DNA of 64,000 nucleotides from Nitrospirota bacterium. GTDB taxonomy: Bacteria; Nitrospirota; Thermodesulfovibrionia; Thermodesulfovibrionales; UBA6898. Of this stretch, positions 28,422 through 44,721 are shown piece by piece. The DNA is taken from positions 909 to 64,908 of the forward strand of contig JAKAIZ010000002.1 in NCBI GenBank assembly GCA_021814065.1. Reading direction: 5' to 3'. The number at the start of each line of letters is the position of its first letter. Within the stretch, counting starts at the first letter, position 1. The notes beneath the pieces were generated by a model. It searched no databases, was not told the origin of the DNA, and saw nothing but the letters and a program-made list of their open reading frames with translations. The translations under genes and the position numbers were made by a program.

Positions 28422-28562
28422 TGCCCGGTTTACCAGCCGTCTCCTTTATGCATTCGGCGCGCCATGTAAAATTTTATCATAGCGGCGCGTCTTTATAACA
28501 GGCCAGCGTCAGACAATGCGTACAATGAGAGAGATCGGGTATAATATCAGGCGGCATCGTCC

Positions 28563-29348
28563 ATGAGTGCAAGTACGAGCGAAATATTCGAGATACTGAG
28601 ATACAAGGAACTTCTGCGGAACCTTGTGACGCGGGACATTAAGGTCCGCTACAAGCGGTCGGTCCTCGGCTTCTTCTGGGTCATGCTGAACCCTCTCCTC
28701 ATGATGTTAGTGATGAGCATGGTTTTTTCAAGCCTGTTCAAGGTAACGACGCCAAACTATACTTCCTATCTGCTTTCGGGCATCATCTTCTGGAACTTTT
28801 TTTCCCAGAGCACGTCCACTTCGGTAGTGAGTCTGATTTCCAACAGTGGTCTTATTAAGAAAATATATATTCCGAAGGCGATCTTCCCCCTTTCGGTTGT
28901 TCTTTCCGCAGTGGTCAATTTTTTCTTTTCCCTGGTGCCGCTTTTTTTCATTATTTATATGACCGGCACACCTCTCGGAAGCCATGTCTATCTCCTGCCC
29001 GTTATTCTCGTACTCGTGGCAGTGTTTTCGTTCGGTATCGCCCTAATACTGTCGACGCTTACGGTTTTTTTCCACGACACCATCTATATATATGATGTGC
29101 TGCTCATGATATGGATGTACATGACCCCGATATTCTATCCGGAATCGATTATCCCCCAGAAATTCAGTTTTATTATCCATCTCAACCCCTTCTATTATTA
29201 CCTGTCTATCTTCCGGGGAGCGCTGTACCTTGACGTTTCTTCAGTTTTCGAAAAATTGCTCTACGGGTTTCTTTTTTCCCTTGCATCCCTGACGGTAGGC
29301 TGGTTCTGTTACAGTGCGAACAAGGACAAGATCGTATACCATCTCTAA
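28563..29348 (+). CDS. wzm: ABC-2 type polysaccharide export permease
   Basis: 261 aa. N-terminal RDIKVRYKRSVLGFFW signature followed by six hydrophobic helices. Confidence 0.85.
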   Translation: MSASTSEIFEILRYKELLRNLVTRDIKVRYKRSVLGFFWVMLNPLLMMLVMSMVFSSLFKVTTPNYTSYLLSGIIFWNFFSQSTSTSVVSLISNSGLIKKIYIPKAIFPLSVVLSAVVNFFFSLVPLFFIIYMTGTPLGSHVYLLPVILVLVAVFSFGIALILSTLTVFFHDTIYIYDVLLMIWMYMTPIFYPESIIPQKFSFIIHLNPFYYYLSIFRGALYLDVSSVFEKLLYGFLFSLASLTVGWFCYSANKDKIVYHL

Positions 29349-29396
29349 TGCGAACATATATGAATAACACGACGAGGGTTGCCTTTGGATAGTGCC

Positions 29397-30125
29397 ATGA
29401 TAGAGATAAACGACGTTTGCGTACGTTACCGTCTTGCAAAGGAGAAGCCGAAGACCCTCCAGGAATATCTCATCGATAGACTGAAGGGGAAAAGACACGA
29501 CTATGAGGATTTCTGGGCTCTGCGGGATCTCAATATTGGGGTCAGAAAGGATGAAACCTTCGGCATCGTAGGCCGGAATGGTGCGGGGAAGAGCACGTTG
29601 CTGAAGGTCATCGCCGGGGTTTTGCGGCCGACCAGTGGACGAGTGTCTGTCCATGGGAAGATTGCTCCGCTCATTGAACTCGGCGCAGGGTTTGATCCTG
29701 AACTCACGGGCGCTGAAAATATCTATCTCAACGCATCTATCCTCGGGCTTTCACGGAGTGAAATAAAAGAAAGGTTCCCGAGCATTGTTGATTTTTCCGA
29801 GCTGAATGAATTTATATACAGTCCATTAAAAAGCTATTCTTCGGGAATGGTCGCAAGGCTGGGGTTCTCTATCGCTACGGAGGTCGATCCGGATATCCTT
29901 ATTATCGATGAGATTCTTTCGGTCGGAGACAAACAATTTGTGACGAAATGTAACGAGAGGATGCGTCTTTTCAGGGAAAAAGGGACGACGATGCTGCTTG
30001 TGTCGCATAACCTGGTCGAAATTGCCGAAATCTGCAGTACCGTCCTCTGGATGGACCACGGAGGGGCTAAGATGTGCGGAGAGCCGAAGACAGTTATTGA
30101 CGAATACGTGAAGTCGCTCACATAA
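29397..30125 (+). CDS. wzt: Polysaccharide ABC exporter ATP-binding protein (short form, no C-terminal carbohydrate-binding domain)
   Basis: Walker A GRNGAGKST, signature YSSGMVARLGFS, Walker B ILIIDE. Track start is TTG 29379; ATG 29397 (MIEINDVCVRY) is preferred. Confidence 0.85.
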   Translation: MIEINDVCVRYRLAKEKPKTLQEYLIDRLKGKRHDYEDFWALRDLNIGVRKDETFGIVGRNGAGKSTLLKVIAGVLRPTSGRVSVHGKIAPLIELGAGFDPELTGAENIYLNASILGLSRSEIKERFPSIVDFSELNEFIYSPLKSYSSGMVARLGFSIATEVDPDILIIDEILSVGDKQFVTKCNERMRLFREKGTTMLLVSHNLVEIAEICSTVLWMDHGGAKMCGEPKTVIDEYVKSLT

Positions 30126-30286: not shown

Positions 30287-30343
30287 ATAGGAGAGGATTT
30301 CCTGAGGCGTAAAATATTATTATTGCACGGAGGATGTTCGTTA

Positions 30344-32446
30344 GTGTCGAAGAGGTCTTGTGCCGCGGTATTATTCGGTATCCTCATCATATGTGCGGCA
30401 AGCGGTTTGTCCTATGCCGTAGTCATCACTCCTGATCTCCGCCAGGCATTGCAGTCCGCAGGTCCTGCCGGAGACGTTTCCGTGATCATAAATCTGGCCT
30501 ACAGGGTCGACCTCAAAAAAATTGCCGCAATTGCGCCTGACCGGATTGCCGGGAGTGACAAGGTGCGAAAAAGGGATGCGATAATCAAGGCTCTTCGGGA
30601 GAAGGCCAGTCTCACCCAGAAGTCCATAAGGGCACTGCTCCAAAACAGGGGCGCAAAGAAAATAAAACCCCTCTGGATCACAAATTCAGTTGCGGCAACG
30701 GTCCCTGCTTCGGTAATCAGCGAGTTGATGAGCCTGCCTGAGATAGAGAGCATCGAACTGGACGCGGTTGTACAGGCCTCTCCTGTTATTCCTGCGGCAG
30801 CGGTGACTCCGTCTGCCGGATATGAGTGGAATATTTCAACGATCAACGCGCCGGTCCTCTGGGGCGTCGGTATTAACGGTCCGGGCGCAGTAGTGGCGAA
30901 TCTGGATACGGGGGTCGATGTAAGTCACCCTGACCTGCAGAACAAGTGGAGGGGAGGCTCAGACAGTTGGTACAATCCTTATGCCGATCCTGCCAACTGT
31001 TGTTACTGTTCTAATGCGCCATTGCCTCTCACGACCTGCCTCACCAACTGTGTGGCTGCTACGGCATGTACTTCCTGTGAGCTTTCTGCGACAACCCCGT
31101 GCGACAACAACGGCCATGGCACCGGAACGATGGGAGTTATGGTCGGAGGCTCGGCGACGGATGCCTATGGTGTGGCGCCGGGTGCTCAATGGATAGCGGC
31201 AAAGATATTTAATGACGCCGGGACCACCGATGAGAGCAAGATTATCCTCGCGATGCAGTGGCTCCTCGCACCCGGAGGAAATGCCGCAAACGCCCCCGAC
31301 ATCGTCAATAACTCGTGGGGGTTTAATGCGCCGGGCCAGTGCTTCCCTGCGCTACCCAATGCGTTGGAGGTTGCGATTCAAAACGTTCAGGCCTCCGGCA
31401 TCGCCATGGTCTTTTCCGCCGGCAATAAGGGCCCGAATCCTTCAACCAGCGTGAGCCCTGCCAACTATCCGGGAAGTTTTGCGGTCGGCGCGACCGACGG
31501 TTCTAATCTTATCGCCTGGTTTAGCAGCAGGGGACCTTCCGCCTGTCTTGACAGAACCGCCAGCTTCCCTAATGTAGTAGCTCCCGGCCTAGGCATCTAT
31601 ACTTCAGCCCCTGTCTCCCCCGGACCTTCTTATGTAACGGTTCAGGGCACATCCTTTTCCGCTCCTCACGTTGCCGGTGCAGAGGCCTTGCTGATAAGCG
31701 CATTTCCTACTCTGACCCCGGACCTGGTGGAAACAGCCCTTGAACAGACCGCAGTGAACATCGGGGCACCTGCTTCTGTTCCCAATATTACTTATGGATA
31801 CGGCCTGATTGATGTCAACGGAGCACTCTCATACCTTACTTCGCATGGAGAAATCTCCATTCCCGAAATCGTAGGCTATCCTGCCTCTTTTGATTACGGG
31901 ACGGTGGATACATCCAGTCCGCTGATTTCTCAGACATTTACAATTACAAACAGAAGCGCAGCGAGCATAACGGTAAATTCGATAACGGTCACAGGTCTCA
32001 ATGGTAGGGATTTCTTGATATCAAGTAACACTTGCAGCGGATATTCCCTGGCTCCTTTGGCAAGCTGCACGTTTATCGTGACGCCTACTTCTACCGGTCC
32101 TAAGATTGCGGATATAAGCATCAATTATGGCAGCAGTCCTGCTTATAATGTCCCGCTCAGCGGTAATATTACAACGCCTGTTGCACGTGTTCAGAGCAGT
32201 ACAGTGATTGCGACTTACTCCCTTATCCAGACGGCCTATAATAAGTGTGCCGGCGGGGAAATCGTCGGGATGCAGGCGACAACGTATTACGAAAGTCCGA
32301 ACTTTAATTCCCCTTTAAACATAAGCGTCAGCTTGCAGGGCGGTTATGATGCATCGTTTGGATATCAGTACGGCTTTACTACTCTCCAGGGTTCGCTCAC
32401 AATCAGTAGCGGGACAGTGACCGTTGGGAATTTAATATTGCAGTAA
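30344..32446 (+). CDS. Secreted S8 (subtilisin-like) serine protease with an I9-like propeptide and C-terminal beta-rich domains
   Basis: Catalytic triad blocks VANLDTGVD, GHGTGTMGV, GTSFSAPHVAG. GTG 30344 lies 9 nt after GGAGGA and gives the signal peptide VSKRSCAAVLFGILIICAASGLSYA. Track start is TTG 30323. Confidence 0.9.
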   Translation: MSKRSCAAVLFGILIICAASGLSYAVVITPDLRQALQSAGPAGDVSVIINLAYRVDLKKIAAIAPDRIAGSDKVRKRDAIIKALREKASLTQKSIRALLQNRGAKKIKPLWITNSVAATVPASVISELMSLPEIESIELDAVVQASPVIPAAAVTPSAGYEWNISTINAPVLWGVGINGPGAVVANLDTGVDVSHPDLQNKWRGGSDSWYNPYADPANCCYCSNAPLPLTTCLTNCVAATACTSCELSATTPCDNNGHGTGTMGVMVGGSATDAYGVAPGAQWIAAKIFNDAGTTDESKIILAMQWLLAPGGNAANAPDIVNNSWGFNAPGQCFPALPNALEVAIQNVQASGIAMVFSAGNKGPNPSTSVSPANYPGSFAVGATDGSNLIAWFSSRGPSACLDRTASFPNVVAPGLGIYTSAPVSPGPSYVTVQGTSFSAPHVAGAEALLISAFPTLTPDLVETALEQTAVNIGAPASVPNITYGYGLIDVNGALSYLTSHGEISIPEIVGYPASFDYGTVDTSSPLISQTFTITNRSAASITVNSITVTGLNGRDFLISSNTCSGYSLAPLASCTFIVTPTSTGPKIADISINYGSSPAYNVPLSGNITTPVARVQSSTVIATYSLIQTAYNKCAGGEIVGMQATTYYESPNFNSPLNISVSLQGGYDASFGYQYGFTTLQGSLTISSGTVTVGNLILQ

Positions 32447-32584: not shown

Positions 32585-33019
32585 ATGAAACGGATTGGCA
32601 GATTTTATTCCCAGGTCGCAGTGGCCGGCATTTATTGCATGTTTCTGATCTGGGGCGGTCAGGCATCTGCTGGAGACGCCAACCTGTGCGCAGGAGATAT
32701 CGCAAAGTTCTGCAAAGATGTGAAACCCGGCGCGGTCATGGATTGCCTTGAAAGACATGAAAACGAACTATCCGACGAGTGCAAGACCTATGAAGCAAAG
32801 ATGGGCGGGAAGAGGGTCGAGATGAGGGAGGAAGTGCGGCAGCTGAAGATCTTTCGGGAGGCCTGTAACGAGGATATGGCCAAATTCTGCAAGGACGTCC
32901 AGCCTGAACAGAGCGTGATCGAAAAATGTCTGAGTTCACATGAAGGTGAATTGTCGGCATCGTGCGGGGAACGCATGAAAGCGACTATGGAAGAGAGGGC
33001 GAAGAAGAAAACACCGTAG
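32585..33019 (+). CDS. Secreted cysteine-rich repeat protein (two 4-Cys repeats)
   Basis: AAGGAGGAG RBS and a signal peptide. Repeats CAGDIAKFCKDVKPGAVMDCLERHENELSDEC and CNEDMAKFCKDVQPEQSVIEKCLSSHEGELSASC resemble the Cys-rich repeat family (PF00839-like) from memory. Confidence 0.75.
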   Translation: MKRIGRFYSQVAVAGIYCMFLIWGGQASAGDANLCAGDIAKFCKDVKPGAVMDCLERHENELSDECKTYEAKMGGKRVEMREEVRQLKIFREACNEDMAKFCKDVQPEQSVIEKCLSSHEGELSASCGERMKATMEERAKKKTP

Positions 33020-33543
33020 GCCGTAGGCCGCTTTCGCAACAGCGGGTCAGTGGATAACCCAGTCGCTTTCTTACACCAACTCCGGCTTGGGGCCTTTGGT
33101 GAGTTGAACGATATAATAGCCCTTTGATCCGTAGCGCTGGCCGGGGCCGAAACTGGACCTCGGGTACAGGGGATAAATTGCGTCCTGTTCCCATAATCCC
33201 ATTCCGCTTGTGCTCATGGTCATACCGAAAAGGTTCAGAAGATAGTCGCGGTAATAATTCCCGTTCATCCCCATCAAAACCTGTGACAGAACCTGGACGG
33301 TGGTATACACCTGTTTCAAAGTGACCAGCGCATCGCCGCGGACATTACTGAGTGACCGGGAACTGCTGACAAGATGAAGACCCTTGGAGGAGAGAGAGGG
33401 AATTCGGCCTGGCTGCTCCTGGGAGTCATTCCAGAGTCGGTGTCTGTCGCGAAATAGAAGTTTATCTCCAGTAGCGTCCGAAGATTATCAGACAGCATTA
33501 TATTTAAATTTTTTAGGATTCCTTTTTTATTAAAATAAATTAA

Positions 33544-33594
33544 TTTTGTAGGATAAATTCCTACAAAAGTTTCAGACAATGACCTATTGTCTGA
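33544..33594. promoter_or_regulatory. Two adjacent perfect palindromes in the AT-rich leader of the multicopper oxidase gene
   Basis: TTTTGTAGGA-taaat-TCCTACAAAA (33544-33568) and TCAGACAAT-gacct-ATTGTCTGA (33572-33594). Both have 5-nt spacers and they lie 3 nt apart. Confidence 0.4.
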
Positions 33595-33791
33595 CTGATT
33601 TTCTTCTGGCATAGTAAATAAAAAAAAATAAAAAAAGGGGGCGCTTATCAACTTCATCCTGCAAGAAGATACGCGATTGATACTCATGAGGCCCGCCGAT
33701 AGGCAACTTCAAAGCAATTGATATGAGGCATGAATAATCAAAGATGCTCAAGATACTGAACGATAAAAAAAATCACAGGAGGAGTGATAGC

Positions 33792-36700
33792 ATGAAGAGG
33801 CGCAATAATTTGGTCCTTGTGAGTGTGCTTTTGCTTGCAACGGCCTTTCCCTGGGGAATCAACACGGCTGATGCCGGCCCCGGGATCACCAATCCATGCC
33901 CGCCGGACCAGATTTGCCCCGAGGGGCCTGGTTTCGGTACCTACTACGCAAATAGCCCCGCGGGTATCCGGACTTATCAGGGTGTGTCATATTTTACCGG
34001 TGGCCCTCTCAGGAAGTTTGTCGACAGTCTGCCGGGCTTGGGATATGCGAACAGAAATAACCTGGGGCAATATATCCCGGTTGCTGTGCCGGATACATCG
34101 ACGTTTCCGGGGTCCGACTATTACGTGATCGGCCTGAAGGACTACAGAATAAAGATGCATTCCGACATGCCAGCTGCGACTGACACACTCGGAACCGGTA
34201 CAAGGATCAGGGGTTATTACCAGATCAACGGCACGGATCACAGTTCACAATATCTGGGGCCTTTGATCATAGCCAGGCGGGACAGGCCGGTGCGCCTCCT
34301 CTTTGAAAACCATCTCGGCGCCGGAACGGCAGGCGACCTCTTCATACCGGTTGACACCACGGTGATGGGTGCAGGGCAGGGTCCGCTTGGGCTTGGCTGC
34401 GGAGGAGTTTACCCCGGCTGCAACTACACCCAGAACCGGGCTGTTATCCATCTCCACGGCGGCAACACACCATGGATCAGCGATGGTATTCCCCGCCAAT
34501 GGATAACCCCGATCGGGGAATACTCGACGCCCTATCTTAAAGGGGAGACCCAGCGAAACGTCCCTGACATGTGGTTTGACTCGGGCCACAACGTTGTCCC
34601 GGCTGGAACCTCCGGTGCGACGAACGACCCTGGTCAGGGAAGGGCCACTTATTATTGGACTAACCAGCAGAGCGGCAGGTTTATGTTTTTTCATGACCAC
34701 TCTTACGGACTCACACGCCTTAACGTATATGCGGGCGAGGCGGCGGGCTATCTGATAACAGACCCCGAGGAAGATAAATTGATCGATGCCGGTACTATCC
34801 CCAATGTATGTCCTTCCGGCAGTCCTGATTGCGTATACCGTTACGGGATACCCCTTGTCATCGAGGACAAGACTTTCGTTCCCTGGGACGTCTCTGTCCA
34901 GGATGCAAAATGGGATGTCAATAAATGGGGTAAGCCGGGAGACCTCTGGTTCCCTCATGTCTACGAGCCGAATCAGAAGCCCAATGACCCGACCGGCGCC
35001 AACCCCTTCGGAAGATGGGACTATGGCCCATGGTTCTGGCCTCCTGTGCTGCTTGACGCCGCACACTCAACGCTTCCCGACCCTTCGATAGTGCCGGAAG
35101 CTTTTATGGACACTCCGATAGTCAACGGCACTGCATATCCTTATCTGAACGTGGAGCCGAAGGCCTACAGGTTCCGTATCCTCAATGCCACAAACGACAG
35201 GATGCTCAACCTGCAATTCTATGTTGCAGAACCTCTCCATATCAGTGTTACAAACGGGGGCTCCAATTATTCCGCAACGCCGATTGTTGAAATAGGCAGC
35301 AGCGGCTGCACCCCCGAGCCACTGGCAACTGCAACGGTGGATGGCGGTGTGATTACGGGAATTACAGTTACCAACTCTGACTCAATTGCATGCACCTCGA
35401 TTCCAAATGTCAGCATAACGGACTCAACCGGGACAGGCGCTGCCGTGGCTGCTTCAATCAATACGGAAGTCAGGATGGTGGCGGCGCTGCCGCCGACTGC
35501 AGGAAATCTTCCGGCCTGTACCACGGCAACAGTGACTAATGACTCGGGGCTTGCGCTCGGGGGCCTCACGCTGGGCCCAACGGGCCTTCCGGCAAATTGC
35601 TGGCCGACGACATGGCCGGTAGACGGAAGGGACGGGGGCGTGCCTGATCCGACCACAGCCGGGCCTGCGATGGTCCAGATCGGCACTGAAGGAGGTTTTC
35701 TGCCGAAGCCGGTTGTGATACCCTCGACTCCGGTCGGCTATGAATACAACCGCAGAAATATAGTGGTCCTGAATGTCCTGAACAAGGCGATTTTTCTCGG
35801 CTCGGCCGAAAGGGCCGACATCGTCGTAGACTTCTCTCAGTTTGCAGGGAAAACACTAATAATGTATAACGACGCGCCGGCGCCTGTCCCTGGTTTCGAT
35901 CCTCGCAACGACTACTACACTGACGACCCTGATCAGTCCTCGACAGGGGGCGCACCCACGACCCTGCCCGGTTACGGCCCTAACACTCGTACGATCATGC
36001 AATTCCGGGTGGCGGACTCTGCTACCCCCCCTACCTTTGACCTCGCGGCGCTGCAGAATGAGGCAACCGGTCTCCCTGCAGCGTTTGCAGCGTCTCAACC
36101 GCCTATGCACGTGCCCGAACCGGTTTATCCTGCTCCCAACAATGCCGTCGCCGATACGCTTGCAACTATCCAGGCATACTCTTTAACCTTCAATCCGAAC
36201 ACACTGACCAGCGGCATCGAGGCGATCAGGAATATAACGGTAATAAACGGGGGCGCGGGATATACTGTTGCCACCGTAACTGTGGATCCGCCACCTCCCG
36301 GTGGCACGCAGGCGACGGCTTCTGCGGCCGTATCGGGCGGTGCTGTCACGGCTATAAACATCATAAACCCCGGATCAGGGTATTATTATGCTCCCGGAGT
36401 TACGATTTCAGGCGACGGCACGGGCGCTGCTGCCGTTGCCAATTTTGGGGCGACTCCCCAGGCGATCAGGTCCGTCACGGTTACGAACGGAGGCTCGGGC
36501 TGCGTTGCCTCTCCGACTGTCAATTTCTTGGGTGGCGGCGGCACGGGCGCTACTGCTTCTGCAACGGCACCGGCCGGAGAAATTACCGGGATCACGGTTA
36601 CGAATGGAGGTTCCGGGTATACTTCTTTACCCGCAGTGGCAATCACAGGCTGCACTTTTGCCGCTACTGCCGTTGCGAACTTTGAGCCGGTAACGGTCCC

Positions 36701-38246
36701 TATGCAGCCAAAGGCGATCCAGGAGCTCTGGGACTCCTATGGCAGGATGAACGCCACACTCGGCGTCGAGCTCCCATTTACCAATAACAACATCCAGACA
36801 ACCATCCCGCTCGGATACATTGATCCGACTACTGAGATAGTGCCCGAGGGGCAGACGCAGCTATGGAAGATCACCCATAACGGTGTCGACACCCATCCTG
36901 TCCACGTACACCTTTACAACATGCAGATCATCAACAGGGTCGGCTGGGACGGGGCGATAAGGCCGCCGGAGGACAATGAACTCGGATGGAAGGAGACTGT
37001 CAGGATGAACCCGCTGGAGGACATTATCGTCGCGCTTCAGCCGAGGACCATGACCCTTCCCTTCACGGTACCGGATAGCGTCCACAGTGAGGACACTACT
37101 ACTCCGGCGAGCTCTAATATAACCGTCGTAAGCCCATTCGGGATACCGGGGGGAGGCGTGGTCGGCAACCCGATTATTGTTTCAAACGCCGATCAATTCT
37201 TCGGGTGGGAATATGTCTGGCACTGCCATATCCTTGGCCATGAAGAAAACGACTTTATGCGTCCGTTTGTCATGCTTGTCCCTAACGATTTCCCTGCTGC
37301 GCCGACCAGCCCGTTTGCTACAGTGCCGACTCCGGCGTTGCCCGCGACAACAGGGAACACCGTCCAATTGAGCTGGACGGATAATGATGCCCTCGATCCC
37401 CAAACGAATCTGCCGGAGGCTGTCCGGAATTCCGAGATCGGTTTTCGCATCGAGCGTGACAGCGGCAGCGGATTCGTACCGATAACGAACGTATTTACGC
37501 CGATAACATATGTTTATCCGGACACGATTTACTTTACCGATACACAGGTCGCTTCGGGCGCGACTTACAACTACCGGATCTGGGCTTATAACGAGAAAGG
37601 CGACTCGCTGCGTTCGGTGACAGCGTCGGTAACGATGCCGACATGGACGAAGGCCGATAGCGTGACCCTCATCCCCACGCCGGCGAGTCCGGTGGTAGCC
37701 GGAAACCCGGTCTTGTTTTCTGCCTATGGTTCGGGCTCCTCAGTTTCCTACCAGTACCGGTTCTGGCAAAACGGTGTCATGGTCCAGGACTACGGTATCG
37801 GCTCTACGTGGACGATGCCGGCTTCGACGCTTCCGGGGACCTATACAATAATCGTCGATGTGCGGACCAGCCTGTCGTCTCCGGCTCCGGATGCGTCTGC
37901 GTCCACAAACTATGTAGTTTCGAATCCTTTTGTCACGCCGGCGTCAGGATCAGTGCAGATTGTCACGCCTCCGACGACAATTACGCCTCATTCTGTCGTT
38001 ACCCCTTATTCTACCCTTGCAGCAGCATTTGCCGCAGCCCAGGCTAACGACACGATCGAGGCATGGGGCGTGCCGTTCTCCGAAAGTATTAACTTAACCA
38101 CCCCCGGGCCGGCCACAGTGACATTTGCCGGAGGTTATGACCAAACCTTCGGCAGCCCCCTTTCCATGACTACCCTGCAGGGCGGATCCCTGACTGTAGG
38201 CGGAGTCGGCGGGACCCTGGTCGTGGACCGGCTGACTATACAATAA
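33792..38246 (+). CDS. Giant secreted multicopper oxidase with inserted GGxGY repeats, FN3-like and Y_Y_Y-like domains and a shared C-terminal module
   Basis: ATG 33792 follows AGGAGGAG and gives the signal peptide MKRRNNLVLVSVLLLATAFPWGINTADA; the track ORF starts at 33744. Copper motifs appear in order: IHLHGG, FFHDHSYG, HPVHVHL, WHCHILGHEENDFM. Confidence 0.9.
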   Translation: MKRRNNLVLVSVLLLATAFPWGINTADAGPGITNPCPPDQICPEGPGFGTYYANSPAGIRTYQGVSYFTGGPLRKFVDSLPGLGYANRNNLGQYIPVAVPDTSTFPGSDYYVIGLKDYRIKMHSDMPAATDTLGTGTRIRGYYQINGTDHSSQYLGPLIIARRDRPVRLLFENHLGAGTAGDLFIPVDTTVMGAGQGPLGLGCGGVYPGCNYTQNRAVIHLHGGNTPWISDGIPRQWITPIGEYSTPYLKGETQRNVPDMWFDSGHNVVPAGTSGATNDPGQGRATYYWTNQQSGRFMFFHDHSYGLTRLNVYAGEAAGYLITDPEEDKLIDAGTIPNVCPSGSPDCVYRYGIPLVIEDKTFVPWDVSVQDAKWDVNKWGKPGDLWFPHVYEPNQKPNDPTGANPFGRWDYGPWFWPPVLLDAAHSTLPDPSIVPEAFMDTPIVNGTAYPYLNVEPKAYRFRILNATNDRMLNLQFYVAEPLHISVTNGGSNYSATPIVEIGSSGCTPEPLATATVDGGVITGITVTNSDSIACTSIPNVSITDSTGTGAAVAASINTEVRMVAALPPTAGNLPACTTATVTNDSGLALGGLTLGPTGLPANCWPTTWPVDGRDGGVPDPTTAGPAMVQIGTEGGFLPKPVVIPSTPVGYEYNRRNIVVLNVLNKAIFLGSAERADIVVDFSQFAGKTLIMYNDAPAPVPGFDPRNDYYTDDPDQSSTGGAPTTLPGYGPNTRTIMQFRVADSATPPTFDLAALQNEATGLPAAFAASQPPMHVPEPVYPAPNNAVADTLATIQAYSLTFNPNTLTSGIEAIRNITVINGGAGYTVATVTVDPPPPGGTQATASAAVSGGAVTAINIINPGSGYYYAPGVTISGDGTGAAAVANFGATPQAIRSVTVTNGGSGCVASPTVNFLGGGGTGATASATAPAGEITGITVTNGGSGYTSLPAVAITGCTFAATAVANFEPVTVPMQPKAIQELWDSYGRMNATLGVELPFTNNNIQTTIPLGYIDPTTEIVPEGQTQLWKITHNGVDTHPVHVHLYNMQIINRVGWDGAIRPPEDNELGWKETVRMNPLEDIIVALQPRTMTLPFTVPDSVHSEDTTTPASSNITVVSPFGIPGGGVVGNPIIVSNADQFFGWEYVWHCHILGHEENDFMRPFVMLVPNDFPAAPTSPFATVPTPALPATTGNTVQLSWTDNDALDPQTNLPEAVRNSEIGFRIERDSGSGFVPITNVFTPITYVYPDTIYFTDTQVASGATYNYRIWAYNEKGDSLRSVTASVTMPTWTKADSVTLIPTPASPVVAGNPVLFSAYGSGSSVSYQYRFWQNGVMVQDYGIGSTWTMPASTLPGTYTIIVDVRTSLSSPAPDASASTNYVVSNPFVTPASGSVQIVTPPTTITPHSVVTPYSTLAAAFAAAQANDTIEAWGVPFSESINLTTPGPATVTFAGGYDQTFGSPLSMTTLQGGSLTVGGVGGTLVVDRLTIQ

Positions 38247-38403: not shown

Positions 38404-39099
38404 ATGAAGAAGTTATTGGTAGTTGTGATGGCAGTGGCGGCAGTAGCATGCATGTTGGTGCCCCCGGCGTTTGCTGGGCTCGGCGACAGCAGTGCAGATT
38501 TATTGTTTACTCCTGTGGCGCCCTGCAGGATAGTTGATACCAGAGTCGCAGGAGGCAGGATTGATGCCGGAACGCAGAGAAATTTTTACGTAGTGGGGGC
38601 TGCTGCCAACTTTGCCTCCCAGGGAGGAACGGCGGGCGGCTGTGGAATTCCTGCCGGCGCAACGGCAGTGATGATCAACTACGTGGCTGTGGGGCCAGCA
38701 GGTCCTGGCGATCTTCGGGCCTGGCCTTACGGGAGCACGATGCCTAATTCCTCGGTAATCAATTACGCTGCTTATGCAGGCCTGAACCTAGCCAACGGGC
38801 TCGTTCAGCCAATCTGTGACAGCACAGCCACAACGTGTACGTCAGACCTCACTGTGCAGGCCGATGTAAGCTCAACGCATCTTGTCGCCGACGTTATGGG
38901 ATATTATCAGAAGTACCCCGGAGTTAATGTTGCCGGCGGGCTGGCGGCAGACGCAAGATTGAAGGTAGTAACCGGGGATATTGTTTCAACTGCTCAGGGT
39001 AACGGTCTCATAATGAAGGCTTCGGACGGGGCCAATTGTTTTCGGATTACGGTGAACAACGCAGGGGCACTCAGCACGTCTTCCGTAACGTGTCCTTGA
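38404..39099 (+). CDS. Secreted protein with an unassigned ~140-aa conserved domain (paralog 1)
   Basis: AAAGGAGAA RBS. Signal peptide MKKLLVVVMAVAAVACMLVPPAFA. Shared block FTPVAPCRIVDTR...GGCGIPAGATAVMINYVAVGPAGPGDLRAWPYG..MPNSSVINY...VADVMGYY. Confidence 0.75.
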   Translation: MKKLLVVVMAVAAVACMLVPPAFAGLGDSSADLLFTPVAPCRIVDTRVAGGRIDAGTQRNFYVVGAAANFASQGGTAGGCGIPAGATAVMINYVAVGPAGPGDLRAWPYGSTMPNSSVINYAAYAGLNLANGLVQPICDSTATTCTSDLTVQADVSSTHLVADVMGYYQKYPGVNVAGGLAADARLKVVTGDIVSTAQGNGLIMKASDGANCFRITVNNAGALSTSSVTCP

Positions 39100-39574: not shown

Positions 39575-40750
39575 GTGAAAAGAATCTTAGCAGTACTGAT
39601 CTTTATTTCTATTACTATTTTGATAACAGGCAGTGGGACGGACATCTTCGCGGCGGGCTCGGAACCCACGATCGGCGACTCGGTCCCTGCGGCCCAGACT
39701 GCGGACCAGAATGTGGCGTTGGCAGAGGCGATCGTTGCAAAGTTTGAAGCGGACTCGGGCAGGCCCCTTGACCCTGCATACCGGGTCTCTCTGGTAAATG
39801 ATCTCGCTTCGCGCCCCACCTCGCAACTTGATGCGATACAGAGCGGAGCAGGACTCATCACCACGCAAAACCTCGGCGACAGTGCCTCAGATCTGGTCTA
39901 CACGCCCGTGGCGCCGTGCAGGATCATCGACACGCGGCTTGCAGGAGGCGCGATAGCTGCCAACACGTTAAGAAACTTTTTCGCTGTAGGGTCCCCTTTT
40001 AATATGCAAGGAGGGACATCCGGCGATTGTGGCATCCCATTTGGGCCGGCAACGGCGGTCGCCATCAATTTTGTTGCGGTTGGGGCCAGCGGTCCTGGTG
40101 ACCTGCGCGCCTGGGCATACGGGGACACGATGCCAAATGCCTCGATTCTTAACTATGGCAACGCTAGCTATGTCGGGACCAATCTTGCAAACGCCATTAC
40201 CGTGCCTATCTGCAACCCCGGAACAGCCGTCAACAGATTGAGCGCCTGTGCTTATGATATGGTCGTTCAGGCGGACGTGAACAGCACCCAAGTTGTGGCC
40301 GATGTAGTGGGCTACTTCCGGAAGGTCAGAACAGAACAGGTGAAGAGCTTCTCGCAAAAGGCCGTTAGTAGTGGCACGACTGCCGTCGGGGCTACTTGCA
40401 CGAACTATAAGACGATCACGGTTACCGCACCAACGGGAGTGGCTGGGACTGTTCTGGTCAGGGCAGATGCCGTCTTCCAATTAAACCATACAAACGGCAC
40501 AGCGGACGAGGTGGTCCCCTTTCTGAGCGCGACAAGCGGCACTGAATGTTCTACGTCGTATGCCGGCAACATCTTTCTTCATCTTCCGGCCGAATTGCCT
40601 ACGAGTACAAGTTATTTGCCGATCTCCCTTTCGGCCCGGTTCCCTGTCAGTGCAGGGGCAGCCGCTACCTTCTATCTGAACGTAAGGAATAACTCCGGAT
40701 CGATGAACTTCTTCTCGTCGGCCATGGACGCAACTTTTATTCCAAATTAA
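39575..40750 (+). CDS. Secreted protein with the same unassigned domain plus a ~130-aa C-terminal extension (paralog 2)
   Basis: GTG start after AAAGGGGA and a signal peptide. Shared block YTPVAPCRIIDTR...GDCGIPFGPATAVAINFVAVGASGPGDLRAWAYG..MPNASILNY...VADVVGYF. Confidence 0.75.
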   Translation: MKRILAVLIFISITILITGSGTDIFAAGSEPTIGDSVPAAQTADQNVALAEAIVAKFEADSGRPLDPAYRVSLVNDLASRPTSQLDAIQSGAGLITTQNLGDSASDLVYTPVAPCRIIDTRLAGGAIAANTLRNFFAVGSPFNMQGGTSGDCGIPFGPATAVAINFVAVGASGPGDLRAWAYGDTMPNASILNYGNASYVGTNLANAITVPICNPGTAVNRLSACAYDMVVQADVNSTQVVADVVGYFRKVRTEQVKSFSQKAVSSGTTAVGATCTNYKTITVTAPTGVAGTVLVRADAVFQLNHTNGTADEVVPFLSATSGTECSTSYAGNIFLHLPAELPTSTSYLPISLSARFPVSAGAAATFYLNVRNNSGSMNFFSSAMDATFIPN

Positions 40751-40859: not shown

Positions 40860-43364
40860 ATGTCCGATAGCGTTCCAGACGGAATAAACGCCGCTTCCGA
40901 AAACAATATCCCATCCTATTATCTTCACGTCAGGTCGGAGATACTTTCCGCTGTCCCTTCAACCGCACTTAACATTCTCGATGTCGGCTGCGCGGCAGGC
41001 ATGCTGGGGAAGGCGCTCAAGGAAAAAGACCCTGCCCGCCGGCTCGTCGGGATAGAACTGGATGCCTTCGCGGCGTCGTTTGCAAAGCGGTTGCTGGACG
41101 CCGCCTATCATGCCGACGTCGAATCTTTCGACCCCCCTTTTCAGCCGGGGGAATTCGACTGTATCGTCTTCGCCGATGTCCTCGAACATCTGAGAGACCC
41201 GTGGGCTACAGCGGAAAAGTATGTGACTTTCCTTAAGCCGGGCGGCACGCTCATCGCGTCCGTCCCGAACGTCCGCTATCTGCCCCTTCTCAGGGATGCG
41301 GCCGAGCTCGGCCTGTGGGAATATCAGGAGGAGGGGATCCTGGACAAAAGCCATCTGCGGTTCTTTACGAAGAGGCAGTTCCTGGAGATGATGGAGCGGC
41401 TTTCGGTCGGCTGCGACGCGGTAGAATATCTCTACAAGGACCCGTTGCATGTGATAGGCGCTGAGGGACACGGGCGGGCTGTTCAATGCGGCAACCTCCT
41501 GCTCATGAACGTAACCGATGAAGAGCTCGATGAGTTGCGCGCCTTTCAGTTCGTCTTTGTCGGGACTTACCGGCCCGGGACTGCTAGGGCGGACAATCAA
41601 TGGACCGGGCAAGAGTCTATCCGAAAGGCAGGATGCGGTGAACGTCCCGAACAGTCTACGGAGCCTCTTGAAAAGTCCGCTTCAGAGGGAGAGGTCGATA
41701 TGGGCAGGCCGGTCCCGATGGGACCGAAATATGATATGGGCCGGCAGGACCTTGTTGTCGGGCACCTTGAGGAGATCCATTTCCAGCAGTGCGACTATCC
41801 CAAAATTTCTATAATTATTCCTGTGATGGACAAATGGATGCTCACATATCATTGCCTGAGCTCTATTCTCGAACATACGAAAGAGATCGCTTATGAAGTG
41901 ATTATCGTCGATGACGGCTCCACGGATGAAACGATCGAAATGCTCGGAAAAGTCGGAAACATTACGCTGCTTAGAAACGAAAAAACCAGGGGGTTTGTGT
42001 TTTCCTGCAATAAGGGAATTGGGAGCGCAAGGGGGGAATACGTTCTTTTTCTCAATAACGACACGGTCGTCACCGAGGGCTGGCTGACGCCGATGGCCGC
42101 GCTGCTGGACAATTCGGCGGCAATAGGCGCTGTCGGAGCAAAATTGATCCTTCCCGACGGGACCTTGCAGGAGGCGGGCTGCATTGTATGGAATGACGGC
42201 TCCACGGCAGGATACGGCGGGGGTGAAAATCCTGAAGATCCCCGGTTCTGTTATGTGAGGGACGTCGACTACTGTTCCTGCGCCTGTCTGCTTGTCCGCA
42301 AGGAACTCCTATATGATCTGGGAGGTTTTGATGAGGTGTACTCACCGGCCTATTATGAAGATGCGGACCTTTGCTTCGAAGTCAGGAGGCTGGGATACCG
42401 GGTTGTTTATCAGCCTGCTGCTAAAATCATCCACCATCAGTTCGGCAGCAGTTCAAGAGAAGAAGCCATGGCCCTTTATCTGAAAAACATGTCGGCTTTT
42501 GCGGCGAAATGGCGTCACGTTCTTAACGGACAGTATTCTCCGAAAAGCGGCAATGTCCTGCGGGCGAGAACCAGCAGGCGGGGGCAAAGAGTCCTTATCA
42601 TTGACGGTAGCGATACTGTATTCGATGAGACGGGATATCTTCGATCGGCCCGTGATATCGCAGAATTTCTTATGCGGTCCGGCTACACGGTGACGTTCTT
42701 CTCTCTGAGTGGGAATAATTGCCGGCAGGCAGGCGTACTCCAACAGCAGGGTGTCGAAGTATTCTGCGGCGGTGAAATGACGGCAGGGGACTTGGCAAGA
42801 GAAAGGGCCGGTTTCTACAGTGCACTCTTTATATGTGCGCCGTTGCGTGCCGACGACGAACTGAAAACCCTTAGGGAGGCATTCCCCTCGGCGCGGCTCA
42901 TCTATAAAGTGGTAGAATCCGGATCCAAGGCTGATGGCGAGGAAGAAAAGAGAACCGAACTGCTGGTGCAGTATGGTCCCGACGTTGTTATTGTGCCATC
43001 GCAAGGTATGGTCAACAATTTCTCGGAGCGGGGGCTTCGAAACGTTTTTTTCTGGGGATGTCAGGCTGAGCCAAAGCCTCAAGGGGACCGTCCGGTGAAT
43101 CAAACGCTCGCTGATACTATGAGAAAAGCCTTCAGAGGGGCGCCGATTGAAGAGGATAGATGTGGTTCCGATGATTTATTAGTTCAGGAGCTTCGAGCCA
43201 AGACAGATGAAATGGAGCGATACGTGACAAGTCTGAAAGAGACCCTTGCCGAGAAGGACAAATACGTAGAAAGCCTGCTGGAGGCCGTCGGCAGGAAGGA
43301 CGTGTATATCGCGTCTTTGCTCGAACACATAGAAGAAATCAAGAAGAAGATCAAATGGTTTTAG
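40860..43364 (+). CDS. SAM methyltransferase - GT2 glycosyltransferase - uncharacterised alpha/beta region - C-terminal coiled coil
   Basis: Methyltransferase block ILDVGCAAGMLG...FDCIVFADVLEHLRDPW...LKPGGTLIASVPN. GT2 block ISIIIPVMDK...IIVDDGSTDET...EDADLCF. The last ~45 residues form 14-residue repeats (EMERYVTSLKETLA / EKDKYVESLLEAVG / RKDVYIASLLEHIE). Confidence 0.85.
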   Translation: MSDSVPDGINAASENNIPSYYLHVRSEILSAVPSTALNILDVGCAAGMLGKALKEKDPARRLVGIELDAFAASFAKRLLDAAYHADVESFDPPFQPGEFDCIVFADVLEHLRDPWATAEKYVTFLKPGGTLIASVPNVRYLPLLRDAAELGLWEYQEEGILDKSHLRFFTKRQFLEMMERLSVGCDAVEYLYKDPLHVIGAEGHGRAVQCGNLLLMNVTDEELDELRAFQFVFVGTYRPGTARADNQWTGQESIRKAGCGERPEQSTEPLEKSASEGEVDMGRPVPMGPKYDMGRQDLVVGHLEEIHFQQCDYPKISIIIPVMDKWMLTYHCLSSILEHTKEIAYEVIIVDDGSTDETIEMLGKVGNITLLRNEKTRGFVFSCNKGIGSARGEYVLFLNNDTVVTEGWLTPMAALLDNSAAIGAVGAKLILPDGTLQEAGCIVWNDGSTAGYGGGENPEDPRFCYVRDVDYCSCACLLVRKELLYDLGGFDEVYSPAYYEDADLCFEVRRLGYRVVYQPAAKIIHHQFGSSSREEAMALYLKNMSAFAAKWRHVLNGQYSPKSGNVLRARTSRRGQRVLIIDGSDTVFDETGYLRSARDIAEFLMRSGYTVTFFSLSGNNCRQAGVLQQQGVEVFCGGEMTAGDLARERAGFYSALFICAPLRADDELKTLREAFPSARLIYKVVESGSKADGEEEKRTELLVQYGPDVVIVPSQGMVNNFSERGLRNVFFWGCQAEPKPQGDRPVNQTLADTMRKAFRGAPIEEDRCGSDDLLVQELRAKTDEMERYVTSLKETLAEKDKYVESLLEAVGRKDVYIASLLEHIEEIKKKIKWF

Positions 43365-43374
43365 GATAAACAAA

Positions 43375-44685: not shown

Positions 44686-44721
44686 GGCCGTCCCCCGGGG
44701 AAATTCGGCGTTAAGGATAGA

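What the first reader, a model, noticed from the sequence alone, without database searches (positions are those of the whole stretch)
33792..38246. 1484-aa secreted multicopper oxidase with repeat-expanded architecture: candidate extracellular metal (Mn/Fe/Cu) oxidase
Seen: all four MCO copper motifs occur in canonical order (IHLHGG; FFHDHSYG; HPVHVHL; WHCHILGHEENDFM), spread over more than 1100 residues. Two blocks of GG(S/A)GY-type repeats sit between the cupredoxin domains (VTNGGSNYSATPIVEIG; VINGGAGYTVATVTV; INPGSGYYYAPGVTISG; VTNGGSGCVASPTVNFLGG; VTNGGSGYTSLPAVAITG). These are followed by an FN3-like domain (TVQLSWTDN...YNYRIWAYNEKGDS), a Y_Y_Y-like Ig domain (VSYQYRFWQNG...YTIIVDV) and the shared C-terminal module. 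Established: very large secreted MCOs include the MofA/MoxA/MnxG-type Mn(II) oxidases. The N-terminal GGPLRKFVDSLPGLG region resembles what I remember of MofA-like proteins, but I cannot verify that here. Inference: this is a surface-displayed oxidase acting on an extracellular metal or phenolic substrate. The upstream Cys-rich protein and the downstream paralogs may be accessory factors.
Basis: partly seen in the sequence, partly recalled or inferred. Interest (0 to 1): 0.65.

Follow-up and report, generated by a model that had tools for sequence, protein, structure and literature searches.

The report
Giant secreted MofA/OmpB-type multicopper oxidase
This is an intact gene for a very large secreted copper oxidase from an uncultured mine-drainage bacterium; it belongs to an already known, very widespread family (MofA of Leptothrix, OmpB of Geobacter) whose real substrate is still unknown, so it is a solid but fairly ordinary find.

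Summary
Window 33792-38246 (+) encodes a 1484-aa Sec-secreted protein with all ten His and one Cys copper ligands in canonical order. It is under purifying selection (dN/dS 0.12).

Structure prediction and Foldseek show one CotA-like three-domain multicopper oxidase core, not a six-domain MnxG type. The core carries two insertions of GGxGY repeats, followed by an FN3 domain, a second beta-sandwich and a ~95-aa C-terminal module.

The protein belongs to the giant MofA/OmpB-like family:
- More than 6000 homologues were found.
- At least 421 species genomes carry one, including Geobacter, Gallionella, Leptothrix, Nitrospirota, Bathyarchaeota and Methanothrix.
- Identity is 36-43% to two tandem Leptothrix ochracea MofA-like ORFs and 54-58% to Geobacteraceae proteins.

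New details:
- The T1 axial position is Phe, not Met. About 40% of the family shares this, including the Leptothrix ORFs.
- The repeats are an optional module, with 0-19 copies per homologue. The same module occurs in phage virion proteins.
- The usual accessory genes, a mofC-like cytochrome and SCO1, are reduced here to a 3' remnant.
- The C-terminal module is shared only with the neighbouring S8 subtilase.

The substrate (Mn, Fe, Cu or phenolics) cannot be decided from sequence. Verdict: a new member of a known kind, of modest interest.

The parts
33792..38246 (+). Gene for the 1484-aa multicopper oxidase (stop codon included). Shine-Dalgarno AGGAGG lies at 33777-33782.
   Evidence: dN/dS 0.12 against the 82%-identical L004 copy.
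33792..33875 (+). Sec-type signal peptide (res 1-28, cleavage after TADA). There is no conserved twin-arginine motif in homologues.
   Evidence: Sequence. Homologue N-termini.
33999..34796 (+). Cupredoxin domain 1 (about res 70-335). It holds Cu motif 1 IHLHGG (34446-34463; H220, H222), the proton-relay Asp D231, and Cu motif 2 FFHDHSYG (34683-34706; H301, H303).
35025..36131 (+). Cupredoxin domain 2 (about res 412-780), interrupted by a ~165-residue family-specific insertion.
   Evidence: CotA residues 204-267 align to res 412-476, and CotA 290-321 align to res 665-696. Model.
35238..35459 (+). Repeat block 1 inside domain 2 (res 483-556): one clear GGxGY unit (VTNGGSNYSATP) plus one degenerate unit (VTNSDSIACTSIP).
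   Evidence: dN/dS 0.20.
36225..36686 (+). Repeat block 2 in the D2-D3 linker (res 812-965): four GGxGY units of about 35-42 residues, each predicted as three beta-strands.
   Evidence: PHROG matches at E 5e-22 to 1e-10. 7152 representative proteins carry the module.
36687..37286 (+). Cupredoxin domain 3 (res 966-1165). It holds HPVHVHL (36894-36914; H1035, H1038, H1040) and WHCHILGHEENDFM (37218-37259; H1144, C1145, H1146, H1150, E1151). The axial position is F1155 (37254-37256).
   Evidence: dN/dS 0.034.
37305..37634 (+). FN3-like beta-sandwich (about res 1172-1281).
   Evidence: PF00041 is annotated in homologues.
37659..37922 (+). Second Ig-like (PKD/Y_Y_Y-like) beta-sandwich (about res 1290-1377).
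37950..38243 (+). C-terminal module of about 95 residues (consensus Y.tI..A....d.I......f.E....vtl.GGyD..F.....TTLqG.ltv..G.l.vd.l.IQ), with no family assignment.
   Evidence: The model has low confidence here.
30323..32446 (+). Neighbouring secreted S8 subtilase with a choice-of-anchor-D domain. It carries the same C-terminal module in its last ~92 residues (32168-32443). An S8 gene also adjoins the oxidase in L004, L005/L036 and L039.
32585..33019 (+). Secreted 144-aa protein with two 4-Cys repeats (Cys_rich_FGFR). It is conserved next to the oxidase only in L004.
33071..33484 (-). 3' remnant of a mofC-like gene (Peripla_BP_6 plus CxxCH haem motif). It is 73% identical to residues 462-574 of the 582-aa L004 protein. 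The 5' part of that gene and the adjacent SCO1 gene are missing.

Best explanation
The gene encodes a Sec-exported extracellular or cell-surface three-domain multicopper oxidase of the giant MofA/OmpB-like family.

Shown:
- A complete type-1 copper site (His2Cys) is present.
- A complete trinuclear cluster (8 His) is present.
- Both acidic proton-relay residues of CotA are present (D231 = CotA D116; E1151 = CotA E498).
- The core has a CotA-like fold.

It should therefore take single electrons from a substrate at the T1 copper and reduce O2 to water at the trinuclear site.

Inferred:
- Phe occupies the axial position, as in high-potential fungal laccases. This would give a three-coordinate T1 copper with a raised potential, suited to hard-to-oxidise substrates such as Mn(II) or Mn(III).
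- The protein is exported unfolded by Sec, so copper must be loaded outside the cytoplasm. In relatives an adjacent SCO1-type chaperone probably does this.
- The GGxGY repeats, the FN3 domain and the Ig-like domain act as spacers or adhesive arms. They would hold the enzyme at the cell surface, in the polysaccharide layer or on mineral particles. The same repeat module is found in phage virion proteins.
- The ~95-aa C-terminal module, shared with the adjacent subtilase, is a common targeting, anchoring or processing tag.
- The most likely substrate class in a mine-drainage organism is a reduced metal, Mn(II) or Fe(II). Sequence alone cannot establish this.
For: Copper ligands and proton-relay residues:
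- All ligands are present and align to CotA. They are conserved in 71 homologues.

Fold:
- AF2 model of res 29-1170: pLDDT 78.7, pTM 0.82.
- Foldseek top hits are CotA laccases, with TM 0.78-0.80 normalised to the target, over the whole length.

Family size and relatives:
- 6234 homologues and at least 421 genome loci.
- 36-43% identity to two tandem Leptothrix ochracea ORFs, 46-49% to Gallionella ORFs and 54-58% to Geobacteraceae ORFs.
- The giant MCOs form a clade separate from small CotA- or CueO-like MCOs.

Accessory genes:
- mofC-like genes occur in 17 and SCO1 genes in 12 of 79 genome loci, mostly in the Phe-axial group.
- Both are present next to the 82%-identical L004 copy.

Axial residue:
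- Phe in 30 of 83 genome-locus MCOs and 57 of 127 protein hits.

Selection:
- Purifying selection acts on every module.

Accessory domains:
- FN3 and Ig-like folds confirmed.
- The repeat module matches phage virion proteins.

Habitat and literature:
- The source is mine-drainage metagenomes.
- The literature describes OmpB/MofA as extracellular MCOs with FN3 adhesion domains (PMC5566968; bioRxiv 10.64898/2026.01.22.701106).
Against: - No activity or expression data exist. Three small metatranscriptomes from the same study have no contig on the locus, which is uninformative.
- The reference sequences MofA (L. discophora SS-1) and OmpB (GSU1394) could not be retrieved. Family placement rests on genus-level relatives and on the literature.
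- MofA's own Mn-oxidase role is disputed. OmpB is linked to Fe(III)-oxide reduction, not oxidation.
- In this window the mofC-like gene is a remnant and SCO1 is absent, so the locus has lost its usual helpers.
- The nearest solved structures are laccases and bilirubin oxidases that act on organic substrates.
- The effect of Phe at the axial position is inferred from other MCOs. M1156 next door could conceivably coordinate the copper.
- The tree is a quick NJ tree without support values.
Confidence: 0.6

Rival explanations
1. It is a laccase or bilirubin-oxidase-like enzyme acting on organic substrates (phenolics, humic substances, pigments or polymer cross-linking in the envelope), not on metals. 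The surrounding polysaccharide genes would then hint at a role in modifying or cross-linking the extracellular matrix.
For: - The best solved-structure and sequence matches are CotA laccase, bilirubin oxidases and phenoxazinone synthase.
- A non-coordinating Phe at the axial position is typical of fungal laccases (established knowledge).
- The gene sits inside a large glycosyltransferase, ABC-2 exporter and sulfotransferase cluster.
Against: - It falls in the giant MofA/OmpB-like clade, apart from small CotA-like MCOs.
- Relatives carry cytochrome-c (mofC-like) and SCO1 partners, and are enriched in metal-cycling taxa such as Geobacter, Gallionella and Leptothrix.
- All NCBIfam equivalog scores are far below cut-off: PhsA 110 against 950.
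- CotA itself can oxidise Mn(II) (PMC3618234), so the fold does not discriminate between substrates.
Confidence: 0.2
2. It works like Geobacter OmpB/OmpC: a surface copper protein that helps with contact to, or electron transfer to, insoluble Fe(III)/Mn(IV) oxides under anoxic conditions, rather than acting as an O2-reducing oxidase.
For: - The closest named relatives outside its own clade are Geobacteraceae and Desulfuromonadaceae proteins, at 54-58% identity.
- Homologues occur in strict anaerobes, including Methanothrix, Bathyarchaeota, Methanoperedens and Syntrophobacter.
Against: - The full O2-reducing trinuclear site and proton relay are strictly conserved. This would be unnecessary for a pure adhesin or electron conduit.
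- No multihaem cytochromes or porin-cytochrome genes occur in the window.
- The only cytochrome partner is a remnant.
- OmpB's mechanism is itself unknown.
Confidence: 0.12
3. It is a cuprous oxidase or copper-detoxification enzyme (CueO/PcoA-like) for a copper-rich mine-drainage habitat.
For: - The habitat is mine drainage.
- Weak NCBIfam CueO and FtsP hits were found.
Against: - The CueO equivalog score is 56 against a cut-off of 525.
- There is no Met-rich segment near T1 and no Tat signal.
- The architecture and clade differ from CueO-like proteins.
Confidence: 0.04
4. The locus is decaying: the oxidase has lost its helpers and is on its way to becoming a pseudogene.
For: - The mofC-like gene is reduced to a 3' remnant and SCO1 is missing.
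- In the closest relative, L004, the oxidase itself is split into 252-aa and 1218-aa ORFs.
Against: - The 4455-nt ORF is intact and identical on 12 contigs from several samples.
- All ligands are intact.
- dN/dS is 0.12 overall and 0.03 in domain 3.
- Helper genes may lie elsewhere in the genome.
Confidence: 0.04

Closest known systems
MofA of Leptothrix (putative Mn(II) oxidase), represented here by two tandem MofA-like ORFs of Leptothrix ochracea (L084)
   Same: - Homologous over the whole core: 36-43% identity, E about 1e-150.
- The T1 motif YVWHCHILGHEENDFMRP is identical, including Phe at the axial position.
- It is likewise a giant secreted MCO with GGxGY repeats in the D2-D3 linker and FN3-type C-terminal domains.
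- The family is linked to mofC-like and SCO1 genes.
   Different: - It falls in a different subclade: Nitrospirota-like plus Geobacteraceae, against the betaproteobacterial clade.
- There is no mofB or mofC operon here, only a mofC-like remnant.
- It has a different C-terminal module and an S8 subtilase partner.
- The original L. discophora sequence was not compared directly.
- MofA's own function is unsettled.
OmpB (GSU1394) and OmpC of Geobacter sulfurreducens, outer-surface multicopper proteins needed for Fe(III)-oxide reduction
   Same: - It belongs to the same family according to the literature, where OmpB is described as homologous to MofA (PMC5566968).
- It is 54-58% identical to Geobacteraceae and Desulfuromonadaceae giant MCOs whose loci also carry SCO1 and mofC-like genes.
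- It has an FN3 domain and is a secreted surface protein.
   Different: - The G. sulfurreducens sequences themselves were not retrieved.
- It has only one ExxE motif (EDNE 1060-1063), which is not informative.
- No type II secretion genes are seen nearby.
- The host is probably a Nitrospirota-like mine-drainage bacterium, not a Geobacter.
CotA laccase / bilirubin oxidase (Bacillus), a three-domain MCO
   Same: - Best solved relative: phmmer E 6e-36 and Foldseek TM 0.78-0.80 normalised to CotA.
- It has the same four Cu motifs and the same Asp and Glu proton-relay residues.
   Different: - It is about 1000 residues longer: insertions in D2 and in the D2-D3 linker, plus three C-terminal domains.
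- Phe replaces Met at the axial position.
- It is Sec-secreted rather than a spore-coat protein.
- It belongs to a separate clade.
MnxG (Bacillus sp. PL-12 / Pseudomonas putida), the best-characterised Mn(II) oxidase
   Same: It is a large bacterial MCO that has been proposed to oxidise metals.
   Different: MnxG types are described as differing in the number of Cu-binding domains and, from general knowledge, are six-domain proteins. Here there is a single three-domain core with one set of motifs. It is therefore not a member of this type.
GGxGY repeat module of phage virion proteins (PHROGs 460, 701, 5342, 708, 19630; cyanophage structural, baseplate and tail-fibre proteins)
   Same: Residues 811-964 match these profiles at E 5e-22 to 1e-10. 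They also match BFVD models of cyanophage structural proteins.
   Different: Here the module is inserted into an enzyme rather than a virion protein. No Pfam family or solved structure exists for it, so its function is unknown in both settings.

Membership tests
Three-domain multicopper oxidase (CotA / bilirubin-oxidase type) | Four copper-binding motifs supplying 10 His and 1 Cys (T1 plus trinuclear cluster), in the order HxH, HxH, HxxHxH, HCHxxxH | tested here: met
   H220, H222, H301, H303, H1035, H1038, H1040, H1144, C1145, H1146 and H1150 align to the CotA ligands. They are conserved in 71 homologues.
Three-domain multicopper oxidase (CotA / bilirubin-oxidase type) | Three cupredoxin domains in one chain | tested here: met
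   AF2 model with pTM 0.82. Foldseek finds CotA with TM 0.78-0.80 normalised to the target, covering the whole core.
Three-domain multicopper oxidase (CotA / bilirubin-oxidase type) | Axial Met at T1 (typical of bacterial members but not obligatory; fungal laccases have Phe or Leu) | tested here: not met
   F1155 aligns to CotA M502, and M1156 aligns to M503. Phe is found in about 36-45% of the giant family.
Three-domain multicopper oxidase (CotA / bilirubin-oxidase type) | O2-dependent oxidase activity | not testable with these tools
   This needs purified, copper-loaded protein.
MofA/OmpB-like giant extracellular MCO | Full-length homology of the core to Leptothrix MofA-type and Geobacter-type giant MCOs, forming a clade apart from small MCOs | tested here: met
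   Caveat: genus-level relatives were used (L. ochracea, Geobacter spp.), not the reference MofA and OmpB entries. The NJ tree has no support values.
MofA/OmpB-like giant extracellular MCO | Secretion signal, length over 1000 aa, and FN3-type domain(s) after the catalytic core | tested here: met
   The features are as described in PMC5566968.
MofA/OmpB-like giant extracellular MCO | Adjacent mofC-like (periplasmic-binding plus cytochrome c) gene, with a SCO1 copper chaperone or mofB gene | tested here: not met
   Only a 3' remnant of the mofC-like gene is present (33071-33484, minus strand), and there is no SCO1. Both are present next to the 82%-identical L004 copy and in 12-17 of 79 genome loci. 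The feature is therefore frequent but not universal in the family.
MofA/OmpB-like giant extracellular MCO | Mn(II) oxidation (MofA) or requirement for Fe(III)-oxide reduction (OmpB) | not testable with these tools
   This is unsettled even for the type members.
MnxG-type Mn(II) oxidase | Six cupredoxin domains or duplicated MCO core, acting in a complex with MnxE and MnxF | tested here: not met
   There is a single set of motifs and a single three-domain core. No such partner genes are evident among the neighbouring genes.
CueO/PcoA cuprous oxidase | Passes the NCBIfam equivalog cut-off, has a Met-rich segment over T1, and has a Tat signal | tested here: not met
   NF008205 scores 56 bits against a cut-off of 525. 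There is no Met-rich stretch, and no RR motif is conserved in homologues.
PhsA o-aminophenol oxidase (NF045554) | Score above the equivalog cut-off | tested here: not met
   110 bits against a cut-off of 950.

The most novel reading that the evidence does not exclude
The ~95-residue C-terminal module may be an undescribed targeting, anchoring or co-assembly tag. It would display the oxidase and its cognate protease together on the cell surface or in the sulfated polysaccharide layer, or mark the oxidase for maturation by the protease. On this reading the locus is a small, lineage-specific surface-display system for a high-potential (Phe-axial) metal oxidase in mine-drainage Nitrospirota-like bacteria.

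The module is found in three settings:
- At the extreme C-terminus of this oxidase.
- At the extreme C-terminus of the adjacent S8 subtilase, both here and in L004.
- As a free-standing 126-aa secreted protein next to the homologous oxidase in another Nitrospirae MAG.
Probability: 0.15. Interest if true: 0.55.

Novelty: new member of a known kind. Interest (0 to 1): 0.3.

Why it matters
Giant MofA/OmpB-type oxidases are among the few non-cytochrome candidates for microbial Mn and Fe redox chemistry at the cell surface. Yet no member has a defined substrate, redox potential or structure.

This copy offers a clean, intact, strongly selected example from a metal-rich habitat. It has a Phe-axial T1 site and only six repeat units, which makes it a tractable construct for expression.

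The survey done here also gives family-level facts that help in choosing targets:
- The core is a single CotA-like unit.
- Met and Phe axial subgroups exist, and the Phe group goes with the mofC-like and SCO1 genes.
- The GGxGY repeats are optional and shared with phage virion proteins.

It does not open a new category of biology.

Tried and rejected
- I searched with Geobacter pickeringii P0093 to reach G. sulfurreducens OmpB/OmpC. No G. sulfurreducens entry appeared among the best 120 hits.
- Mehta 2006 is not held in the paper library.
- The word-index search with the 100-aa C-terminal module returned nothing, so its wider distribution is unknown.
- A local HMM of the module found it only in the clade's oxidases, in S8 proteins and in one free-standing protein.
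- The cluster look-up gave no organism names for the closest relatives, so the host taxon is only inferred. It is Nitrospirota-like, judging from L025, L036, L021 and L073.
- PDB sequence searches with the repeat block and with the C-terminal 325 aa gave no significant hit.
- Pfam on the isolated segments gave nothing for the repeats or the module.
- Three small metatranscriptomes from the same study have no contig on 30000-41000. This is uninformative.
- The promoter and terminator scan was not above shuffled expectation.
- The MnxG-type, CueO-type and PhsA-type assignments were rejected (see Membership tests).
- The single ExxE motif, proposed as Fe-binding in OmpB, was dismissed because a four-residue pattern carries no information.

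Full report
**1. Observation**

The ORF list shows a 1500-codon frame at 33744-38246 on the + strand. It is preceded by AGGAGG nine bases upstream. It is also the start called independently on 12 public contigs that carry the identical protein.

The N-terminus is a Sec-type signal peptide (MKRRNNLVLVSVLLLATAFPWGINTADA|GPG). The RR pair is not conserved in homologues, so Tat export is unlikely.

All four copper motifs are present in canonical order. They align ligand for ligand with Bacillus CotA:
- H220 and H222
- H301 and H303
- H1035, H1038 and H1040
- H1144, C1145, H1146 and H1150

The two acidic residues that relay protons to the trinuclear site in CotA (D116 and E498) are also matched, by D231 and E1151. 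In an alignment with 70 homologues, every ligand is invariant or at least 90% conserved.

- The motifs span about 940 residues, not more than 1100.
- The canonical axial position, five residues after the last His, is F1155. The Met of 'DFM' is the next residue, equivalent to CotA M503 rather than the ligand M502.

**2. Architecture**

An AlphaFold2 model of residues 29-1170 has mean pLDDT 78.7 and pTM 0.82. Searched against the PDB, its best matches are CotA laccases, with TM 0.78-0.80 normalised to CotA and alignments running along the entire core. Bilirubin oxidases and phenoxazinone synthase follow. The catalytic part is therefore one three-domain MCO, not a six-domain MnxG or ceruloplasmin type.

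The extra length has three sources:
- An insertion of about 165 residues lies inside domain 2, between the segments aligned to CotA 204-267 and 290-321. It contains one clear and one degenerate GGxGY unit (res 483-556).
- An expansion of about 240 residues lies in the D2-D3 linker. It contains four GGxGY units (res 812-965), each predicted as three beta-strands.
- A C-terminal extension follows the core.

The C-terminal 325 residues were modelled separately (pLDDT 79.7). The model shows an FN3-like domain and a second beta-sandwich, both with pLDDT above 90. Together they match tandem FN3 structures at E about 4e-8. By sequence, the second domain gives only sub-threshold PKD (1.4e-4) and Y_Y_Y (0.0096) hits.

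The last ~95 residues fold with low confidence and match nothing in Pfam, NCBIfam or the PDB.

Nei-Gojobori dN/dS against the 82%-identical L004 copy is 0.12 overall. By region it is 0.03 in domain 3, 0.20-0.26 in the repeat blocks and 0.21 in the C-terminal module. All parts are therefore under purifying selection.

**3. Family**

The protein has more than 6000 significant homologues, and the top 120 are all giant proteins of 1000-2600 aa. The named taxa include:
- Geobacter, Geomonas, Desulfuromonadaceae, Anaeromyxobacter and Syntrophobacter
- Gallionella, Comamonadaceae and Leptothrix ochracea
- Nitrospirota and Thermodesulfovibrionales
- Acidobacteriota, Chloroflexi and Planctomycetota
- The archaea Bathyarchaeota and Methanothrix; Methanoperedens also appears

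The window protein is 54-58% identical to Geobacteraceae and Desulfuromonadaceae members, 46-49% to Gallionella members, and 36-43% over the whole core to two tandem ORFs of Leptothrix ochracea.

A quick NJ tree on 858 well-occupied columns gives the following picture (no support values):
- All giant MCOs fall together, apart from the small CotA-like and CueO-like MCOs that happen to lie in the same loci.
- The window protein groups with L004, L006, L036 and L025 (Nitrospirae/Nitrospiraceae MAGs), as sister to a Geobacteraceae/Desulfuromonadaceae group.
- The Leptothrix, Gallionella and Comamonadaceae proteins form a separate clade.

The literature treats exactly this set as 'OmpB/MofA' extracellular MCOs. 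It notes their FN3 domain and their linkage to a mofC-like cytochrome-c/periplasmic-binding protein, to mofB and to an SCO1 chaperone (PMC5566968). A 2026 preprint models the Gallionellaceae MofA and proposes that its FN domains act as a 'sticky arm' for minerals.

I could not retrieve the reference MofA and OmpB sequences themselves. That last link therefore rests on genus-level relatives and on the papers.

**4. Axial residue**

Across the genome loci the axial position is Met in 52 MCO ORFs, Phe in 30 and Leu in 1. Among the protein hits it is Met in 70 and Phe in 57. These counts include the few small MCOs found in the same loci.

The Phe group includes both Leptothrix ORFs, one of which has a motif identical to the window's. 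It also includes the Gallionella group and the window's own clade. It contains most of the loci that carry mofC-like and SCO1 genes.

In other MCOs, a non-coordinating Phe or Leu at this position raises the T1 potential. This is established for fungal laccases and for CotA M502 variants (general knowledge, not tested here). It is consistent with a demanding substrate such as Mn(II)/Mn(III), but it does not prove one.

**5. The repeats**

Among 200 homologues the motif count ranges from 0 to 19, and 86 have none. Different homologues carry arrays at the N-terminus, in domain 1, in domain 2, in the D2-D3 linker or after the FN3 domain. The repeats are thus an optional, mobile accessory rather than part of the catalytic design.

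An exhaustive HMMER search with block 2 found 7152 representative proteins at E <= 1e-3, of which 1958 were at E <= 1e-10. Of the best 148, only 12 contain an MCO T1 motif.

Ten non-MCO examples all match PHROG families of phage virion proteins at E 1e-35 to 1e-110. These families cover structural protein, tail fibre, baseplate wedge and head closure. The same ten have no Pfam domain for the repeat.

The oxidase's residues 811-964 hit the same PHROG segments at E 5e-22 to 1e-10. The model also matches BFVD models of cyanophage structural proteins locally.

The module therefore looks like a general extracellular beta-repeat used for reach or adhesion. Its actual function is unknown.

**6. Neighbourhood**

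The gene lies inside a long envelope-polysaccharide region. That region includes a sugar transferase, several GT2 and GT4 genes, an ABC-2 exporter pair, a methyltransferase-GT2, a sulfotransferase and GDP-mannose dehydratase.

Immediately upstream are a secreted S8 subtilase with a choice-of-anchor-D domain and a secreted protein with two 4-Cys repeats.

The subtilase ends in the same ~95-aa module as the oxidase (33% identity, E 3e-12). A local HMM finds the module in only three settings:
- In the oxidases of this clade.
- In the S8 proteins of the window and of L004.
- As a free-standing 126-aa secreted protein directly upstream of the oxidase in the Nitrospirae MAG L005/L036.

An S8 gene adjoins the oxidase in four independent contexts: the window, L004, L005/L036 and a Gallionella MAG, L039. 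This is the most interesting unexplained feature.

The two downstream secreted proteins (231 aa and 391 aa) are paralogues of each other. They have no family, and they accompany the oxidase only in this genome.

Between the Cys-rich gene and the oxidase, the minus strand at 33071-33484 encodes a fragment 73% identical to the last ~113 residues of a 582-aa Peripla_BP_6/CxxCH protein. In L004 that protein sits next to an SCO1 gene, upstream of the oxidase. In the window, the rest of that gene and the SCO1 gene are gone. In L004, the oxidase itself is split into two ORFs.

**7. Habitat and expression**

The exact sequence occurs in several mine-drainage metagenomes of one study, at about 19x word depth. 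Three small metatranscriptomes of that study contain no contig on the locus, which says little.

**8. Mechanism and verdict**

Shown:
- The protein is a complete, selected, Sec-exported three-domain MCO of the MofA/OmpB-like family.
- It carries accessory beta-domains.

Inferred:
- Copper is loaded in the periplasm.
- The protein is displayed at the surface or within the matrix.
- It performs one-electron oxidation of an extracellular substrate at a raised-potential T1 site, with O2 reduced to water.
- The repeats, FN3 and Ig domains serve as spacers or adhesive arms.
- The C-terminal module is a tag shared with the protease.

A metal substrate, Mn(II) or Fe(II), is favoured by family context and habitat but remains unproven. 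An organic-substrate laccase role and an OmpB-like role in metal-oxide reduction remain open.

MofA's own assignment is uncertain, because its deletion did not abolish Mn oxidation. MCO-based oxidation passes electrons directly to O2 and so offers no obvious route to energy conservation (PMC9040806).

I rate interest at about 0.3.

Noticed in passing
window 33071-33484 (- strand): This is a 3' remnant of a mofC-like gene (Peripla_BP_6 plus CxxCH). It is 73% identical to residues 462-574 of the intact 582-aa protein in L004. The 5' part of the gene and the neighbouring SCO1 chaperone gene are missing here, replaced by about 250 bp of AT-rich spacer.
   Followed up: partly
L004 9223-9981 and 10001-13657: In the closest relative (82% identity) the oxidase is split into a 252-aa ORF and a 1218-aa ORF. 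This is either a frameshift or an assembly error. That locus keeps the S8, Cys-rich, mofC-like and SCO1 genes.
   Followed up: partly
window 37950-38243 and 32168-32443; L004 S8 C-terminus; L005 9375-9755 / L036 7255-7653: An unassigned ~95-aa module always sits at the extreme C-terminus. It is shared by the oxidase and the S8 subtilase, and is free-standing as a 126-aa secreted protein in another MAG. From memory, its consensus resembles the N-terminal cap and first turns of right-handed beta-helix proteins. This was not tested.
   Followed up: partly
window 36225-36686 (res 812-965) and 35238-35459: The GGxGY repeat has no Pfam family, but it is the same module found in many phage virion proteins (PHROGs 460, 701, 5342, 708 and others). 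It is carried by at least 7152 representative proteins, most of which are not oxidases.
   Followed up: yes
window 37254-37256 (F1155); loci L007-L085: The T1 axial residue splits the giant-MCO family into Met (about 60%) and Phe (about 40%) groups. The Phe group contains the Leptothrix, Gallionella and window clades, and most loci that carry mofC-like and SCO1 genes.
   Followed up: yes
window 38404-39099 and 39575-40750: Two secreted paralogous proteins (231 aa and 391 aa; about 60% identical over 153 aa) share a DL.FTPVAPCRI.DTR.AGG motif and match no family. Outside this genome the only weak relative lies in one Solibacteraceae locus (L041).
   Followed up: partly
window about 10458-30125 and 40860-54224: A large envelope-polysaccharide gene region surrounds the oxidase island. 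It includes a Bac_transf sugar transferase, multi-domain GT2/GT4 proteins, an ABC-2 exporter pair, a methyltransferase-GT2 fusion, a sulfotransferase and GDP-mannose 4,6-dehydratase.
   Followed up: partly
loci L027, L037, L038, L043, L052, L060, L030, L050; proteins P0061, P0098, P0102: Close homologues of this bacterial-type giant oxidase occur in archaea, including strict anaerobes: Bathyarchaeota, Methanothrix/Methanotrichaceae and Methanoperedens. This is odd for an O2-reducing enzyme.
   Followed up: no
BFVD hits A0A3G5AHN9 (Satyrvirus) and A0A3G5A9G4 (Hyperionvirus): Giant-virus 'copper oxidase' proteins of 1102 aa and 863 aa match the whole oxidase model (best E 7e-31), so large MCOs also exist in giant viruses.
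   Followed up: no
loci L084, L082, L015, L023, L078, L013: Giant MCO genes often come in tandem or near-tandem pairs within one locus. Examples are two MofA-like ORFs in Leptothrix ochracea and two in a Gallionella MAG.
   Followed up: no
window 33544-33594: Two 10-bp-stem inverted repeats lie in the AT-rich spacer upstream of the oxidase, and one of them reads as terminator-like on both strands. This suggests the oxidase is transcribed separately from the Cys-rich gene. The scan as a whole was not above chance.
   Followed up: no
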